Below are positions 3,267 to 64,000 of a stretch of 64,000 nucleotides of DNA, piece after piece. The translations under genes and the position numbers were made by a program. The notes below the pieces were generated by a model, which was given only the letters and a program-made list of their open reading frames with translations, searched no databases and had not been told where the DNA came from. Positions within the stretch are counted from its first letter, which is position 1, and each line of letters starts with the position of its first letter. The stretch spans positions 4,322 to 68,321 of the IMG/VR virus record IMGVR_UViG_3300009183_005911. One strand, given 5' to 3'. This DNA is from a virus.

Positions 3267-4046
3267 ATGCCTTTAATTTCACACGAAATACCGAAAACTC
3301 TATTTAACCGTCACGATGAGGTAAGTGATTACCCTTATGTATTAGGGCACTTATTAAGCTTAGATACAGAATATGCTGACTTTTATAAAGAAAAGCTTAA
3401 AACAGCCGATTACTCTATATTAGATAATTCAGCATTTGAATTAGGTAAGTCTATACCGATGGGAGAACTTTATGGGTTGGGTAAGGAATATAAACCTACC
3501 CATCTCGTACTTCCTGATGTAGTTAATAACCACAAGCAAACTTTAGATAATGCAAAAGAGTATTTAACAAACTTTAAAGTAGAAGGTCAACAGTATATCG
3601 GAGTTTGTCAAGGAGATACCTTTGAAGAAATTGCTGATTGTATAGACTACTACTTAACTGAGAGGATAGATATTATTGCATTACCTTTCGATTTAGTTAA
3701 AGAGTCAGATTACGTAACAGTAAGATTTAGATTCTTAAACTGGTGGTATGAGAATAGATTCAATATGGGGATTGGTAAACCTAAATTTCACCTATTAGGA
3801 TGTCAAAATCCAGTAGAGTTTATCTTAATTAATAATCTTAGTATCGCTCTTAGAGGACTTATCTACTCATTAGATACTAGTTCTCCAGTTATTAACGGGT
3901 GGGAAGGAAATAAACTAGGTCCTCATGGGTTGATAGAACCTAAACCAAAAGTAAAACTTGCAGATAATTTAGATATTAAATTGTCAGAAAACCAAATAGA
4001 CCTTATTTTTAGAAATATAAAAACATTCAGAAGCTATGTCAGTTAG
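3267..4046 (+). CDS. dpdA: TGT-fold guanine transglycosylase, DpdA-like (possibly DpdA3 type)
   Basis: ILDNSAFE, LPDV, GVCQG, FHLLGC and SLDTSSP correspond to TGT/DpdA D-S-G-A-F, H-x-LG and S-x-D-S-S motifs; lies between queC and queF. Confidence 0.7.
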   Translation: MPLISHEIPKTLFNRHDEVSDYPYVLGHLLSLDTEYADFYKEKLKTADYSILDNSAFELGKSIPMGELYGLGKEYKPTHLVLPDVVNNHKQTLDNAKEYLTNFKVEGQQYIGVCQGDTFEEIADCIDYYLTERIDIIALPFDLVKESDYVTVRFRFLNWWYENRFNMGIGKPKFHLLGCQNPVEFILINNLSIALRGLIYSLDTSSPVINGWEGNKLGPHGLIEPKPKVKLADNLDIKLSENQIDLIFRNIKTFRSYVS

Positions 4047-8812: not shown

Positions 8813-11122
8813 ATGCAAGAAAAAAGTTATGTAACGGTCAATAGTAAAGAAACTCTAAAAGAACTAATAGAGCATATTAGAACTAGCGAGTTTGTAGCCT
8901 TTGATACTGAAACCAATAGTTTGAATACCCGAAAAGGTAAGATTATTGGTTTTTCTGTGTCAGGTGAGATTGGCAAAGGCTTTTATATGCCTACTATGAT
9001 TTGGAAAGATGAAAAATTACAAGAAGTAATGCTAGAGGGTAAGAGTGCACACGCACTTGCTACCTACGCAATATCAGAACTAGTAGATAAGAAGGTTATT
9101 TGTCATAATGCTTCTTTTGACTTACGTTACGTTCATAACTTCTACGGTATTGATTTACTCCCTTCATTACACGCCGATACTGCCCTACTCGTTCATACAG
9201 TAAGAGAGGAAGGTGCATTTGGATTTGGTAATCCATTTGGATTAAAGTCTATTGCTAAAATGGTTCAAGCCGATATTGGACTTAATGTAGAAGAAGAAGC
9301 GAATGAAGAGCAATTAGAACTAAAAGCTAGTATTAAAGCTAATGGAGGCTCTACTTCAAAAGATAATTACGAAATTTATAAAGCAGATATGGCTATATTA
9401 GCCAAGTATGCTGCAGCCGATACAGATTTAACCTTAAGAATTTATCATCACTTCCTAAAAATACTTCAAGATGAAGGATTAGAAAAATTCTTCTTTGAAG
9501 AAGAGGTAATGCCTGTTTATAGAGAGGTAACTATACCCATGGAAAGACACGGTATTAGACTTAATGTAAAACTTATTCAAGAAACTCAAAGTAATATAAC
9601 AAAAGATTTAGAGGAACAGTCCACCTTAGTTACTCAAGAGTTATTAAAAGAGCCTAAAATTAGGAATTGGATTATAGATCAAGCTATAGGAGCCTATCCT
9701 CCTAAAAATAAAGGTACGTTTGCACAAAGGTTATTAGAACAAGCCGGTGTAGAGTTACCTAGATCAGAAAAGACAGGTAAATTTGCTATTAACAAATCAG
9801 CCGTATTAGGATTACCGGAATCAATTATCAAGGATTACTTAATAACTGGAGATCAAAGTTATTTAGCGAAAGACCAGGTAGTAAAAGTTAGTTTATCTCT
9901 ATGGAAAAAAGATAACGATGGTCAATTCTTTAATATTCAATCTAAAGATCAATTAGGTAAGATTGCATTTAACGTATTAGGTGAAAAACCTCTTTCTACT
10001 ACTGATAAAGGTAAACCTCAATTTGATGAGGATATGATTCAGTCAATTAGCAGTAAGTATTCTTGGGCTAAGCATTTACGTTTATACAATAAACTTACTA
10101 AAATTAAAACTGCGTATGTGGATCGATTCTTAGATGCAGCAGAAGATGAAAGATTTTACCCTTACTTCAAGCAGAACGGTACTGTATCGGGAAGATACGG
10201 TTCTGATTTACAGCAATTACCTAAGCCCTTAGAAGAAGGTCAAGAAGAAGCTCTATTAACAGGGTATACTAACGTAGTAAGAGCTTTCTTTATCTGCGAT
10301 GAAGGAACAAAGTTATTAGATACCGATTATGCATCATTAGAGCCTAGAGTATTTGCTACGGTAGCAGGCGATGAAGGACTAAAGGAGATTTTTAATAACG
10401 ATTTAGATTTCTATTCTCACATTGCTATTAAGACTGAAAAACTAGAAGGTGTTAGTGCACATACAAAAGCAGATAACTTCCTTAAGAAGGTAGATCCTGT
10501 TAAGAGACAAACTGCTAAAGGCTATGCCTTAGGCGTACCTTACGGCATGTCAGGTTATGCACTTGCAATGTCTTTAGGTATAGATAAGAAAGAAGGTGAG
10601 AGACTTGTACAAGGTTATTTAGATGGATTTCCGCAATTAAGAGAATGGAGAGAAAGATCAAGAGCGTTTGTAAAAGAACATGGTTTTATTCAAAATAAGG
10701 TAGGACGTATAAGACATCTTCCTAAAGCAAAAGAGATTCATGCTATGTTTGGCGATAAGATATTAGATGATTGGCGATTTAGAAAAGGTATAGAAGCAGA
10801 ATACGGAGTGGAAGTAGTTACTGCTTTATATCGAGACTATAAAAACGCTCTGAATAACGTTTTAAACTATCAAATTCAGAGTTATGCAGCAAGCATAGTA
10901 AACCGTGCTGCCTTACAAATTAATAGGAGATTCCATAAGGAAAACATAGTAGGACAGGTAATTGCACAGATACATGACCAATTGATTTGCCAAGTTAAGG
11001 AAGAGCATGTAAAAAGAGCTTGCGAGATTGTCCAAGACTGTATGGAAAATACTACTCGATTGGATGGCGTAGAGTTAATTGCAATTCCCGAAATAGCAAA
11101 TAATTTTAAGGAAGGTCATTAG
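8813..11122 (+). CDS. polA: DNA polymerase family A with 3'-5' exonuclease domain
   Basis: Exo motifs AFDTET, HNASFD, YAAAD; TVSGR; motif A DTDYASLEPR; motif B RQTAKGYALGVPYG; motif C QIHDQL. Confidence 0.93.
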   Translation: MQEKSYVTVNSKETLKELIEHIRTSEFVAFDTETNSLNTRKGKIIGFSVSGEIGKGFYMPTMIWKDEKLQEVMLEGKSAHALATYAISELVDKKVICHNASFDLRYVHNFYGIDLLPSLHADTALLVHTVREEGAFGFGNPFGLKSIAKMVQADIGLNVEEEANEEQLELKASIKANGGSTSKDNYEIYKADMAILAKYAAADTDLTLRIYHHFLKILQDEGLEKFFFEEEVMPVYREVTIPMERHGIRLNVKLIQETQSNITKDLEEQSTLVTQELLKEPKIRNWIIDQAIGAYPPKNKGTFAQRLLEQAGVELPRSEKTGKFAINKSAVLGLPESIIKDYLITGDQSYLAKDQVVKVSLSLWKKDNDGQFFNIQSKDQLGKIAFNVLGEKPLSTTDKGKPQFDEDMIQSISSKYSWAKHLRLYNKLTKIKTAYVDRFLDAAEDERFYPYFKQNGTVSGRYGSDLQQLPKPLEEGQEEALLTGYTNVVRAFFICDEGTKLLDTDYASLEPRVFATVAGDEGLKEIFNNDLDFYSHIAIKTEKLEGVSAHTKADNFLKKVDPVKRQTAKGYALGVPYGMSGYALAMSLGIDKKEGERLVQGYLDGFPQLREWRERSRAFVKEHGFIQNKVGRIRHLPKAKEIHAMFGDKILDDWRFRKGIEAEYGVEVVTALYRDYKNALNNVLNYQIQSYAASIVNRAALQINRRFHKENIVGQVIAQIHDQLICQVKEEHVKRACEIVQDCMENTTRLDGVELIAIPEIANNFKEGH

Positions 11123-11145
11123 ATATTTATAATAAATACAGTTAT

Positions 11146-11739
11146 ATGATACATACATTCGTCTTCCCTCAGGAAGAAGTAGACCTTCAGAATTACTATT
11201 ACTACAATGAAGGCTTTAACAAAACAGAGTTAGATAAAGTTTATAAAGGAGTCGATGCACTACCCTTTGTACAGGCAGGAGTAGCTCAAGAGAACTCGGT
11301 AGATAAAAAAATTCGATCGTCATCAATAAAGTGGGTACCCAAGGAAGATAACTGGGAGTGGCTTTATGAAAAAATGATGAATATGGCCTTAGAAGCTAAT
11401 AAAGCATTATGGCATTTCGATTTAATTTCTATTATGGATAATATTCAATATACTGAATACTATGCCTCAGAAGGGGGACATTATGGCTGGCATCAAGACA
11501 TAGGACCAGGTTGGCTATCTAATAGAAAAATTTCCATTACAGTACAGTTATCAGGTCCCGACGAATACGAAGGAGGTAATTTAGATTATTGGCAAGGAGG
11601 AGAAGGACATACTACAGCACCTAAAGGAAAAGGAACAGTATTTATTTTTCCGTCTTATATGATGCATAGAGTAGCACCCGTTACTAAAGGTACAAGACGT
11701 TCTTTTGTATTATGGGTTGGCGGACAACATTACAGGTAA
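11146..11739 (+). CDS. 2OG-Fe(II) oxygenase (PKHD/P4H-like)
   Basis: WHQD, RKISITVQLS, YEGG, FPSYMMHRV, GTRRSFVLW. Confidence 0.88.
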   Translation: MIHTFVFPQEEVDLQNYYYYNEGFNKTELDKVYKGVDALPFVQAGVAQENSVDKKIRSSSIKWVPKEDNWEWLYEKMMNMALEANKALWHFDLISIMDNIQYTEYYASEGGHYGWHQDIGPGWLSNRKISITVQLSGPDEYEGGNLDYWQGGEGHTTAPKGKGTVFIFPSYMMHRVAPVTKGTRRSFVLWVGGQHYR

Positions 11740-62973: not shown

Positions 62974-63160
62974 TATCTTAATTTAGACCTTAATATAAGG
63001 ACATTCTTCCAGACCTCCAACCTTTCCTATATATTTATTTCATTTAAAAACTACCGTGTAAGCTACCTCCGATCTCTCCACCCTTTTCATCGGGCGCCTA
63101 TCTCTAGAGAGATTACATAAAGTTAGGAGTTATATTTCAAACTCCCAACTAAAGTTTTAA

Positions 63161-63289
63161 TTAAATTTCGTAATAACTAATCCCATTTACTACTATAAAA
63201 TTTTTATTATTTTTTAGAGAAATGTAAGTTTTATTTTCTAGAGTAATAGTAGAAAATAAATTTGATTTTTGGATTTTGAAAGTTTTCAT
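63161..63289 (-). CDS. small hypothetical protein (42 aa, not in ORF track)
   Basis: MKTFKIQKSNLFSTITLENKTYISLKNNKNFIVVNGISYYEI; downstream of minus-strand promoter 63312-63342. Confidence 0.5.
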   Translation of the reverse strand: MKTFKIQKSNLFSTITLENKTYISLKNNKNFIVVNGISYYEI

Positions 63290-63311
63290 TTTTTTGATTT
63301 TTGATTATGAC

Positions 63312-63342
63312 TAAAGGTAAGGAATCCTTTCCATCTTTCCAA
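63312..63342 (-). promoter_or_regulatory. leftward promoter TTG-N20-TACCTTTA
   Basis: Exact spacing; a second leftward copy at 63118-63148. Confidence 0.6.
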
Positions 63343-63384
63343 CTTTATTTAATAAAAATAATTTAAATTTATATATATTATTAT

Positions 63385-63415
63385 TTGGTAGAATGGAATA
63401 AAAGTATTAATTTTA
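63385..63415 (+). promoter_or_regulatory. promoter TTG-N20-TAATTTTA
   Basis: Exact spacing; part of a ~65-nt promoter/leader unit repeated at 63812-63881. Confidence 0.65.
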
Positions 63416-63437
63416 TGTAAATTAAAAATTAAAAGTT

Positions 63438-63812
63438 ATGAAAAAATTTAAATTGGTTTATTGGAGTGATTGTAGAGGGATGGAAATTAATGGTATAAGT
63501 GTAGAGAAGTTTAAAGATGGTAGAGATGTATTAGAGAGTTTAATTGAGAGTAAAATAGAGGATGATAGAGATGGAGAGGGGTGGTGTGATTATGTAAGTG
63601 GTATGATTAATGATGGTAAGGGTATGTGGTTGAGTGATAAGAAGGAATGGGAAGATATATTTGTAATAGGAGATTTAGATAAGGAAGTATTTGAAATTAA
63701 TTTTTGTAATGAATTAAATAGTTGTTTGGTTGTAAGGGAGGATAGTGAGTATTTTAATAGAAGATTTGATTTAGATTTATTAGAAGAAGTAGAAAATAAA
63801 TATGGTATTTAA
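63438..63812 (+). CDS. acidic hypothetical protein encoded without cytosine
   Basis: 124-aa ORF with promoter and AAAAGTTATG start context; contains no Ala, Pro, Thr, Gln or His. Confidence 0.75.
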   Translation: MKKFKLVYWSDCRGMEINGISVEKFKDGRDVLESLIESKIEDDRDGEGWCDYVSGMINDGKGMWLSDKKEWEDIFVIGDLDKEVFEINFCNELNSCLVVREDSEYFNRRFDLDLLEEVENKYGI

Positions 63813-63813
63813 T

Positions 63814-63844
63814 TTGGTAGATTGGAAAAAAGTATGTATATTTA
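63814..63844 (+). promoter_or_regulatory. promoter TTG-N20-TATATTTA
   Basis: Exact spacing; near-duplicate of the 63385 unit. Confidence 0.65.
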
Positions 63845-63872
63845 GTAAATTAAAAATTAAAAAATAAAAGTT

Positions 63873-64000
63873 ATGAAAAAAGTATTTAAAGATTATTTAG
63901 AAATTTATGTTGGAAGTAGAGGGGGAATTGAAGATGTAAGTATTAAGAGTTTTGATGTAATTGAAGATTATTTGGAATTTAAGAGTAATGAGAATAAGGA
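63873..64000 (+). CDS. second C-less ORF (3' end outside window)
   Basis: MKKVFKDYLEIYVGSRGGIEDVSIKSFDVIEDYLEFKSNENK..., open to the window end. Confidence 0.65.
   Translation, partial: MKKVFKDYLEIYVGSRGGIEDVSIKSFDVIEDYLEFKSNENK

What the first reader, a model, noticed from the sequence alone, without database searches (positions are those of the whole stretch)
63344..64000. Three-letter genes: cytosine-free transcription units with a guanine-free template strand in a phage that appears to modify guanine
Seen: no C occurs on the + strand for 657 nt. Even at 10% C this has probability 0.9^657, about 1e-30. The tract is not junk: it holds two copies of a promoter/leader unit (TTG-N20-TAnnTTTA...AAAAGTTATGAAAAAA), a complete 124-aa ORF and the start of a second ORF. 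The proteins lack exactly the five residues that require C (Ala, Pro, Thr, Gln, His); Ser is always AGT, Arg is AGR and Leu is TTR. Inference: selection has removed C even at the cost of the protein alphabet. Four non-exclusive explanations: (a) the genome encodes a 7-deazaguanine pathway, so a G-free template lets host RNA polymerase transcribe the earliest genes without reading a bulky modified G, and these products may then unlock the rest of the genome; (b) the mRNA needs no CTP and so escapes CTP depletion or viperin-made ddhCTP; (c) no G/C-containing palindrome can exist here, so first-injected DNA carries no such restriction sites; (d) the mRNA lacks C-containing toxin RNase sites such as ACA. 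I know of no described system like this.
Basis: partly seen in the sequence, partly recalled or inferred. Interest (0 to 1): 0.93.

Follow-up and report, generated by a model that had tools for sequence, protein, structure and literature searches.

The report
Phage early genes written without cytosine
A freshwater Flavobacterium-type phage and many relatives carry a small swappable set of early genes whose messages contain no cytosine at all, so their well-folded proteins use only 15 amino acids; natural selection keeps them so, and the reason is still open.

Summary
Window 63344-64000 (+) has no C over 657 nt; the next-longest C-free run in the window is 67 nt. The contig ends inside the tract. 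A 99.8% identical sibling contig extends the tract to 924 nt: two complete genes of 124 and 120 aa, each with its own promoter, then a partly C-free third gene.

It is not an artefact. All 18 of 18 independent metagenome contigs carrying the second gene's family have zero C in it, with C-free runs up to 1618 nt. Zero A/P/T/Q/H is seen in 84 of 114 and 48 of 52 database homologues of the two families. Among 17 distinct genes, 236 of 360 alignment columns vary and none ever shows C.

C-freeness runs from about the transcription start to the stem-loop after the stop codon, so it tracks the transcription unit. Both proteins fold confidently but match no known fold.

The guanine-modification idea is not supported as a rule. 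Four other deazaguanine phages, or near-complete contigs with the same pathway gene, lack such genes. The cause remains open. My literature searches found no description. This scan has noted the same phenomenon before on other DNA.

The parts
62974..63343 (.). Divergent control region upstream of the cassette. It is non-coding apart from a 42-aa minus-strand ORF (63161-63289), which has its own copy of the promoter/leader unit on the minus strand (about 63290-63351). This region has ordinary or high C on the + strand and is G-poor.
   Evidence: row win_minus42aa. The minus-strand ORFs are not C-depleted: 10.9% and 18.9% sense C.
63344..64000 (+). Cytosine-free tract, cut off by the contig end. 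In the sibling contig it runs 924 nt (L001 2481-3404).
63384..63415 (+). Promoter of ORF1: TTTG (63384-63387), a 20-nt spacer, then the TAnnTTTA box (63408-63415). It is a C-free version of the unit shared by the neighbouring early genes. The Bacteroidota sigma-A-type reading is recalled, not tested.
   Evidence: read directly; alignment A7.
63438..63812 (+). ORF1: 124 aa, 0 C, no A/P/T/Q/H, acidic. The AlphaFold2 model has pLDDT 93.4 and pTM 0.88. No known fold or family.
63813..63844 (+). Promoter of ORF2: TTTG (63813-63816), a 20-nt spacer, then TAnnTTTA (63837-63844). It starts directly after the ORF1 stop codon.
63873..64000 (+). First 42 codons of ORF2. It is complete in L001 3010-3372 (120 aa, 0 C) and belongs to the family with the conserved GSRG and LGLGDEE motifs. 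The AlphaFold2 model has pLDDT 94.7 and pTM 0.86. Its remote homologue in a cultured phage is immuto gp143.

Best explanation
The tract is the start of an accessory, swappable cassette of one to four small early genes in T4-like, Flavobacterium-type freshwater phages related to phage immuto. Each gene has its own host-type promoter.

Shown: purifying selection removes every C of the message, and so every G of the transcribed strand, from about the transcription start to the stop codon. It acts on synonymous sites, leaders and intergenic promoters. It confines the proteins to a 15-residue alphabet. It acts on several unrelated protein families, including C-free versions of families that use C elsewhere.

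Inferred: because almost no single C is tolerated and the limits coincide with the transcription unit, the cost is paid per C during synthesis of the message. Either CTP is unusable or dangerous at that moment (scarce, or accompanied by a chain-terminating analogue such as viperin-made ddhCTP), or each template G, here probably fdPreQ1, is a hazard for host RNA polymerase.

On this reading the cassette is a set of messages that can be completed without CTP. They encode small acidic host-takeover or anti-defence proteins that are needed first. Of the two variants I favour the CTP-side one over the modified-G one, at about 3:2.
For: 1. It is real and widespread.
- 18 of 18 metagenome loci have 0 C in the gene, and their longest C-free runs are 198-1618 nt.
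- 20 DNA runs from 18 studies hold part of the stretch.

2. Selection is shown.
- 84 of 114 and 48 of 52 homologues have no A/P/T/Q/H.
- P(no C | protein) is about 1e-14.
- 236 of 360 columns vary among 17 distinct genes, down to 56% nucleotide identity. None has C, whereas 35-46% of variable columns have C in three neighbouring gene families.
- None of the 20 shown population variants inside the tract is a change to C.

3. It is a property of the cassette, not of one protein.
- At least six sequence clusters are C-free.
- One of them (L011 2002-2232) is homologous to a C-containing early family: 35% identity, E 3e-10.

4. The limits are those of a transcription unit.
- In 6 loci where the promoter holds C, the last C lies 14-27 nt before the ATG.
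- In 12 of 14 loci a C appears within 70 nt after the last stop, 11 at +28 to +43 and L003 at +8; 9 of the 11 lie in the 3' arm of a stem-loop where one can be read.

5. The genes are real: both models have pLDDT 93-95.

6. The cassette is accessory.
- It is absent from L004, which is 92% identical in a neighbouring gene.
- It is absent from 6 of 10 related records.
- Deletion and replacement joints lie at the promoter units in population contigs (table 5).
Against: - No expression data: no RNA holder was listed, and only contigs were laid, not raw reads.
- No defence acting on CTP or C was looked for in any host genome; the host is unknown.
- The genes downstream have ordinary C and would suffer the same handicap unless the cassette products remove it, and none of the products looks like an enzyme.
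- The position is not always first. In L003 a C-containing gene precedes the cassette. In L033 and immuto it lies within the small-gene region.
- immuto gp143 tolerates 5 C.
- Against the modified-G variant: CP220, phiST and the 100%- and 88%-complete QueF contigs G013 and G014 have no such genes. G010 has a DpdA homologue but no cassette in 79 kb.
Confidence: 0.45

Rival explanations
1. The message is protected after synthesis. A host or phage activity cuts or edits RNA at C: C-requiring toxin RNases of the MazF type (recalled), a C-specific nuclease, or a cytidine deaminase. A C-free message is immune to it.
For: It shares the per-C cost, the transcription-unit limits and the accessory nature with the best explanation. 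A terminator hairpin that contains C would not matter for the ORF.
Against: No such activity was identified. There is no context-specific depletion that would point to a recognition motif: all C are gone, and in the low-C genes that follow YC is not depleted (0.31-0.67 against 0.42 genome-wide). Downstream genes use C normally.
Confidence: 0.22
2. The cassette is an extreme form of Rho avoidance. Rho loads on C-rich, G-poor nascent RNA, so early messages made before ribosomes follow are purged of C.
For: Published for B. subtilis: purine bias prevents Rho termination, and Rho targets have more than 150 nt of C over G plus T-richness (PMC13323073; abstract and section 7 read). The tract has the maximal G-over-C skew and 66% purine, against 55% genome-wide.
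Against: Rho reads long windows, so isolated C should be neutral. Yet only 2 C occur in 17 genes of about 360 nt. T rises to 34% from 29%, which is the wrong direction for the second Rho feature. The paper does not treat phages or Bacteroidota: 0 occurrences of either term.
Confidence: 0.1
3. Avoidance of restriction sites at the DNA level. A strand without C cannot form G/C-containing palindromes, which would protect first-entering DNA.
For: No G/C-containing palindrome is possible within the tract; this follows directly from the sequence.
Against: The limits follow the transcription start and the stem-loop, not a DNA segment. C-containing promoters and genes lie directly upstream in L003. 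The cassette sits at different places in relatives. The rest of the roughly 165-kb genome is unprotected. The phage very probably resists G-containing sites anyway through its base modification, as immuto does (PMC10516641).
Confidence: 0.03
4. Artefact (conversion, base-calling or assembly) or a one-off hypermutation of C to T.
For: The contig ends inside the tract, and no raw reads could be laid.
Against: The ORFs are intact, and conserved families fold at pLDDT 93-95. The same rule holds in 18 of 18 loci from many metagenomes and in contigs of 4 further studies. Divergence down to 43% protein identity has not produced any C. G is 24-29% in the tract, so it is not simply AT-rich DNA.
Confidence: 0.01

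Closest known systems
PeSL (promoter-early stem-loop) cassettes of T4-type phages (PMC2839356, PMC4122927; search listing and first lines of the abstracts only)
   Same: Small novel ORFs in a variable region of a T4-like genome, each flanked by a repeated early promoter plus stem-loop unit. Population variants have whole genes deleted or replaced between these units (table 5).
   Different: The text I saw of those papers says nothing about base composition. Here the units and the genes between them lack one of the four bases. The promoter type is that of Bacteroidota (recalled), not of E. coli.
Rho-avoiding purine bias of sense strands (Dierksheide et al. 2026, PMC13323073; abstract and section 7 read)
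   Same: The coding strand is enriched in G over C, and the constraint acts on nucleotide content at synonymous sites.
   Different: That is a statistical bias over whole genomes. Here there is absolute exclusion of one base over 0.4-1.6 kb, at the cost of five amino acids, with T not lowered.
Synthetic C-less / G-less cassettes for in vitro transcription (own knowledge; 'C-less' hits are of this kind)
   Same: A transcription unit that can be completed in the absence of one NTP.
   Different: Those are laboratory constructs that do not code for protein. This is natural, protein-coding and conserved.
[quoted passage not shown]
   Same: Closest cultured relative (DUF932 protein 37.8% identical). 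It has the same modification gene set. Its gp143 is a remote homologue of ORF2 (hhalign probability 93%) with only 5 C in 357 nt.
   Different: The paper describes the base modification, not C-poor genes. immuto has one nearly C-free gene rather than a strict multi-gene tract.

Membership tests
PeSL-type modular early cassette | Repeated early-promoter plus stem-loop unit flanking each small ORF | tested here: met
   A7 aligns 12 units with invariant TTG and TAnnTTTA. Stem-loops lie in the spacer of the C-containing units. The definition was taken from the title and abstract lines only.
PeSL-type modular early cassette | Mediates gain, loss or replacement of ORFs between close relatives | tested here: met
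   L004 lacks ORF1-3, and L003 lacks ORF1 and has another gene instead. Cassette content differs among 20 loci. Joints 2569>3031, 3379>4049 and 3727>4094 occur in population contigs.
Rho-avoidance purine bias | Excess of G over C on the sense strand | tested here: met
   C 0%, G 24%, purine 66% against 55%.
Rho-avoidance purine bias | Low T-richness, and a graded constraint at window level | tested here: not met
   T is 34% against 29% genome-wide. The constraint is per site: 0 of 236 variable columns have C.
DpdA3-type 7-deazaguanine (fdPreQ1) DNA modification, as context of the finding | DpdA, FolE, QueC, QueF and a PurN-like formyltransferase encoded by the phage | tested here: met
   Pfam finds QueC, QueF_N/QueF, Formyl_trans_N and GTP_cyclohydroI. 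Window 3267-4046 is 30% identical to immuto DpdA, E 1e-34. QueD and QueE were not confirmed by Pfam.
DpdA3-type 7-deazaguanine (fdPreQ1) DNA modification, as context of the finding | G actually replaced in virion DNA | not testable with these tools
   Known only for the cultured relative immuto (PMC10516641).
DNA-mimic anti-restriction proteins (ArdA/Ocr), considered for ORF1 and ORF2 | Sequence or fold similarity to solved members | tested here: inconclusive
   No Pfam or PHROG hit. Foldseek against PDB gave nothing at E<=1e-3. The best VIA-align scores were Z 4.1 and Z 4.0 (AcrIE2, 7chq_A), both within noise. Only the acidic composition fits.

The most novel reading that the evidence does not exclude
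Cytosine-free cassettes are a general viral counter-defence design. They are messages that can be made and kept intact while a host immunity directed at C is active, such as chain-terminating ddhCTP from viperins, CTP depletion or C-specific RNA attack. They encode the small acidic inhibitors that switch that immunity off, after which the ordinary C-containing genes can be expressed.
Probability: 0.2. Interest if true: 0.95.

Novelty: categorically new. Interest (0 to 1): 0.88.

Why it matters
- Natural genes written in three letters would be a new kind of signal in genomes: selection on the mere presence of one base in a message.
- The signal is strong enough to strip five amino acids from proteins that still fold, which makes them a natural experiment in reduced alphabets.
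- It points to an unknown step of infection at which every C, or every template G, is costly. That step could be a host defence or a phage takeover mechanism.
- It marks the proteins encoded there as the first tools the phage needs.
- A cultured relative with a nearly C-free homologue (immuto gp143, host Flavobacterium sp. LMO8) makes the question testable at the bench.

Tried and rejected
**Searches that found nothing**
- DNA and protein searches of the phage collection with the tract, ORF1 and ORF2 gave no match.
- Pfam and PHROGs gave nothing for ORF1-3.
- Foldseek against PDB and BFVD, VIA-align wide and the protein atlas gave no significant match.
- The genome-contig scan with the ORF2 family found no relative.
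- ORF1 and ORF2 show no BLAST similarity to each other, although their predicted secondary-structure order is alike; I did not test this further.

**Expression and coverage**
- No RNA holder was listed. Only contigs were available, with no raw reads.
- Some bins of the laid stretch have no cover in single runs.

**Link to QueC**
- Only G000 of 12 records has a QueC hit.
- All 12 are fragments of 10-46% completeness, so this says little.
- G012, a close relative by QueF, probably ends before the cassette position.

**Other checks**
- YC-specific depletion, which would point to the Rho primary binding site, is not seen in the low-C genes. In immuto gp143, 0 of 5 C are YC, which is not significant.
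- The cluster analysis was run without composition correction, so it may merge unrelated acidic proteins.
- Supplements of PMC10516641 were not seen. They list which phages carry which Dpd genes and could bear on the co-occurrence question.

Full report
**1. Observation**

The + strand of window 63344-64000 holds no C in 657 nt. The next-longest C-free run in the 64-kb window is 67 nt, and no other base is missing for more than 64 nt. The window is bases 4322-68321 of a 68,321-nt virus contig that ends inside the tract and has no terminal repeat.

An IMG/VR contig (L001 = G001, 39,169 nt) overlaps the contig end over 3137 nt at 99.78% identity and continues the sequence:
- The C-free run is 924 nt (L001 2481-3404). 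It holds ORF1 (124 aa, window 63438-63812) and ORF2 (120 aa; the window has its first 42 codons from 63873).
- After 81 nt with C, a further 197 C-free nt lie inside ORF3 (84 aa).
- The next genes have 7% C and then the usual 10-21%.

Across the 104-kb merge of the two contigs, every other ORF of 100 aa or more has 11-28% C, and essentially all genes are on the + strand.

**2. Not chance, not artefact**

Statistics:
- Given the protein sequences and the phage's own codon usage, the probability of using no C-containing codon is about 1e-14.4 for ORF1 and 1e-14.5 for ORF2.
- The probability of 124 residues without A/P/T/Q/H is about 1e-14.7, since these residues make up 23.9% of the phage's proteins.

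Evidence from relatives:
- A profile of the ORF2 family found 114 protein clusters of 45-93% identity. Of these, 84 have none of the five residues and 21 have one.
- ORF1 found 52 clusters, of which 48 have none. The four exceptions are C-terminal read-throughs or a chimera.
- In metagenome contigs, 18 of 18 loci with an ORF2-family gene have 0 C in the matched stretch. Their longest C-free runs are 198-1618 nt.
- Among 17 distinct ORF2-family genes, with pairwise nucleotide identity down to 56%, 236 of 360 aligned columns vary and none contains C (96 variable third positions, none with C). Columns with under 60% occupancy and duplicate genes were left out.
- In three neighbouring gene families of the same loci, 64 of 170, 65 of 141 and 57 of 162 variable columns contain C.

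Evidence from public runs:
- Twenty DNA runs of 18 studies, all freshwater or lake metagenomes, hold part of the stretch.
- Contigs of four of these runs were laid on L001 2200-4200. Of the 40 variant rows shown, the 20 inside the tract include no change to C; 3 of the other 20 are changes to C. A further 180 rows were not shown, and no raw reads were available.

**3. Anatomy**

Each small gene is preceded by one conserved unit: TTG(G), about 20 nt, TAnnTTTA, then an A-rich leader of about 20 nt. This unit is shared by four kinds of gene:
- the C-free genes;
- the C-containing early genes;
- a minus-strand 42-aa gene just upstream;
- gp143 of the cultured phage immuto.

I read it as a Bacteroidota sigma-A promoter (consensus recalled, not tested).

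The borders of C-freeness:
- In the 6 loci where the first C-free gene has a C-containing promoter, the last C lies 14-27 nt before the ATG, that is in or just after the TAnnTTTA box.
- In 12 of the 14 loci a C appears within 70 nt after the last C-free stop codon. In 11 of these it lies at +28 to +43; in L003 it lies at +8.
- Where a stem-loop can be read in the next unit (9 of those 11), that first C is the first base of its 3' arm, the only place where the RNA would need C to pair with G.

C-freeness therefore coincides with the predicted transcription unit, not with a stretch of DNA as such. In multi-gene cassettes the internal promoters are C-free too.

**4. A cassette, not a protein family**

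- C-free ORFs fall into at least six sequence clusters (this is rough, because composition correction was off).
- One cluster (L011 2002-2232) is homologous to a C-containing early family: 35% identity, E 3e-10.
- Another shares only its N-terminus with the ORF4 family (E 0.013, weak).

The cassette holds one to four genes and is accessory:
- L004, which is 92% identical in the neighbouring DUF932-like gene, lacks ORF1-3.
- L003 lacks ORF1 and has a C-containing gene before its C-free gene.
- Of 10 related virus records (9 phages), tracts occur in G000/G001, G002 and G006. The other six have no base-free run above 75 nt.
- In G006 (L033) the 885-nt tract follows a 550-nt non-coding region downstream of the DUF932 gene and ends abruptly.
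- Population contigs show joints that delete or replace whole genes between the promoter units (table 5). This is the behaviour described for PeSL cassettes of T4-type phages (PMC2839356, PMC4122927; listing only).

**5. The proteins**

- ORF1 and ORF2 are acidic. The ORF2 family is 19% E, 10% D, 11% K and 2% R; the ORF1 family is 12% D, 15% E, 7% K and 4% R.
- They are predicted with high confidence: pLDDT 93.4 and 94.7, pTM 0.88 and 0.86. Both have the same order of elements, a beta-hairpin, then helices, then further strands, then a helix.
- No Pfam, PHROG, PDB, BFVD or atlas match is significant.
- Their function is unknown. Small, acidic, early and accessory is the usual profile of takeover or anti-defence proteins; that is an inference.

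**6. The phage**

[quoted passage not shown] The window encodes QueC, QueF, a PurN-like formyltransferase, FolE and a DpdA homologue, as immuto does. In immuto the dG peak is absent and fdPreQ1 amounts to 345,000 per 1e6 nt (PMC10516641, passages).

immuto itself has one nearly C-free gene:
- gp143 (68330-68686) has 5 C in 357 nt, against 9-15% C in its neighbours.
- It is a remote ORF2 homologue (hmmsearch E 3e-4; hhalign probability 93%).
- It is about the seventh small gene after a non-coding region, not the first.

**7. Testing the guanine-modification idea**

Genomes or contigs with deazaguanine modification genes but no C-free genes:
- Campylobacter phage CP220, fully modified according to the same paper, has no C- or G-free run above 111 nt.
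- Cellulophaga phage phiST, also fully modified according to the same paper, has none above 83 nt.
- Five long QueF-bearing IMG/VR contigs (54-100% complete) have no ORF of 45 aa or more with under 2% sense C, no run above 137 nt, and no ORF2-family hit.
- G010 is colinear with the window's contig over 72 kb. It has a DpdA homologue and FolE but no QueC or QueF, and no cassette.

So modification does not entail C-free genes. The converse, that C-free genes occur only in G-modifying phages, could not be tested because the cassette-bearing contigs are fragments. It holds for the two cases with enough sequence, this phage and immuto.

**8. Reading**

The near-total intolerance of single C and the transcription-unit limits argue for a cost paid per C. 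They argue against window-level effects such as Rho loading. For Rho, the published features are long C-over-G stretches plus T-richness (PMC13323073), and here T rises. They also argue against DNA-segment effects such as restriction-site avoidance.

I therefore favour an elongation-level cause, in which incorporating C opposite template G is the hazardous step. I give the CTP-side variant somewhat higher odds than the modified-G variant. An attack on C in the finished message is the main rival. None of these was tested directly.

**9. Earlier notes of this scan**

Look-ups show that the scan has noted the same phenomenon many times on other DNA: immuto-like and other freshwater T4-like phages, a marine flavobacterial phage, and archaeal tailed viruses. 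The follow-up verdicts were the same: confirmed, cause open.
- They gave me the PeSL and Rho-paper leads, which I checked in the library.
- I did not verify their claims about archaeal viruses. If true, those claims weaken the link to guanine modification further.

**10. Literature**

Searches (cytosine-free, C-less, devoid of cytosine, without cytosine, and similar terms, combined with phage or early genes) found only synthetic C-less templates and unrelated papers. I found no description of natural C-free genes.

Noticed in passing
L001 2569>3031, 3379>4049, 3727>4094 (table 5): Population contigs from lake metagenomes join one promoter/leader unit to a later one, removing ORF1, ORF3+ORF4 or ORF4. 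Other joints carry replacement sequence. This indicates modular shuffling at the repeated units.
   Followed up: partly
L059/L058 = NC_055915.1 68330-68686 (immuto gp143): A cultured phage has a nearly C-free gene (5 C in 357 nt, all in AC or GC context) that is homologous to ORF2. This is a bench-ready model for the phenomenon.
   Followed up: partly
merged contig 97.5-103.3 kb (beyond the window, in G001): Two 951-aa presumably structural genes have 26-28% C and 14-16% G on the sense strand, the opposite skew to the early genes. Sense-strand C seems to rise from early to late genes.
   Followed up: no
L039 (G010) 10321-11433: A relative encodes FolE fused to an AAA_18 kinase-like domain. It has a DpdA homologue but no QueC, QueF or formyltransferase, which suggests a different deazaguanine derivative in a colinear genome.
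   Followed up: partly
window 63438-64000 and all C-free ORFs: All Tyr, Asn and Asp codons are necessarily NAT, the codons read through wobble by queuosine-tRNAs (recalled), in a phage that makes the queuosine precursor preQ1. This may be coincidence.
   Followed up: no
G013 (IMG/VR record behind L110) 175205-175593 and 178077-178291: Several runs of 100-119 nt without C lie close together on the record's + strand, in a complete QueF-bearing phage genome. No low-C ORF was found there.
   Followed up: no
P0157: One database homologue of ORF1 continues into an aminotransferase-like sequence (PF01041). This is probably a chimeric assembly or a fusion at the cassette border.
   Followed up: no
I did not examine it.
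   Followed up: no
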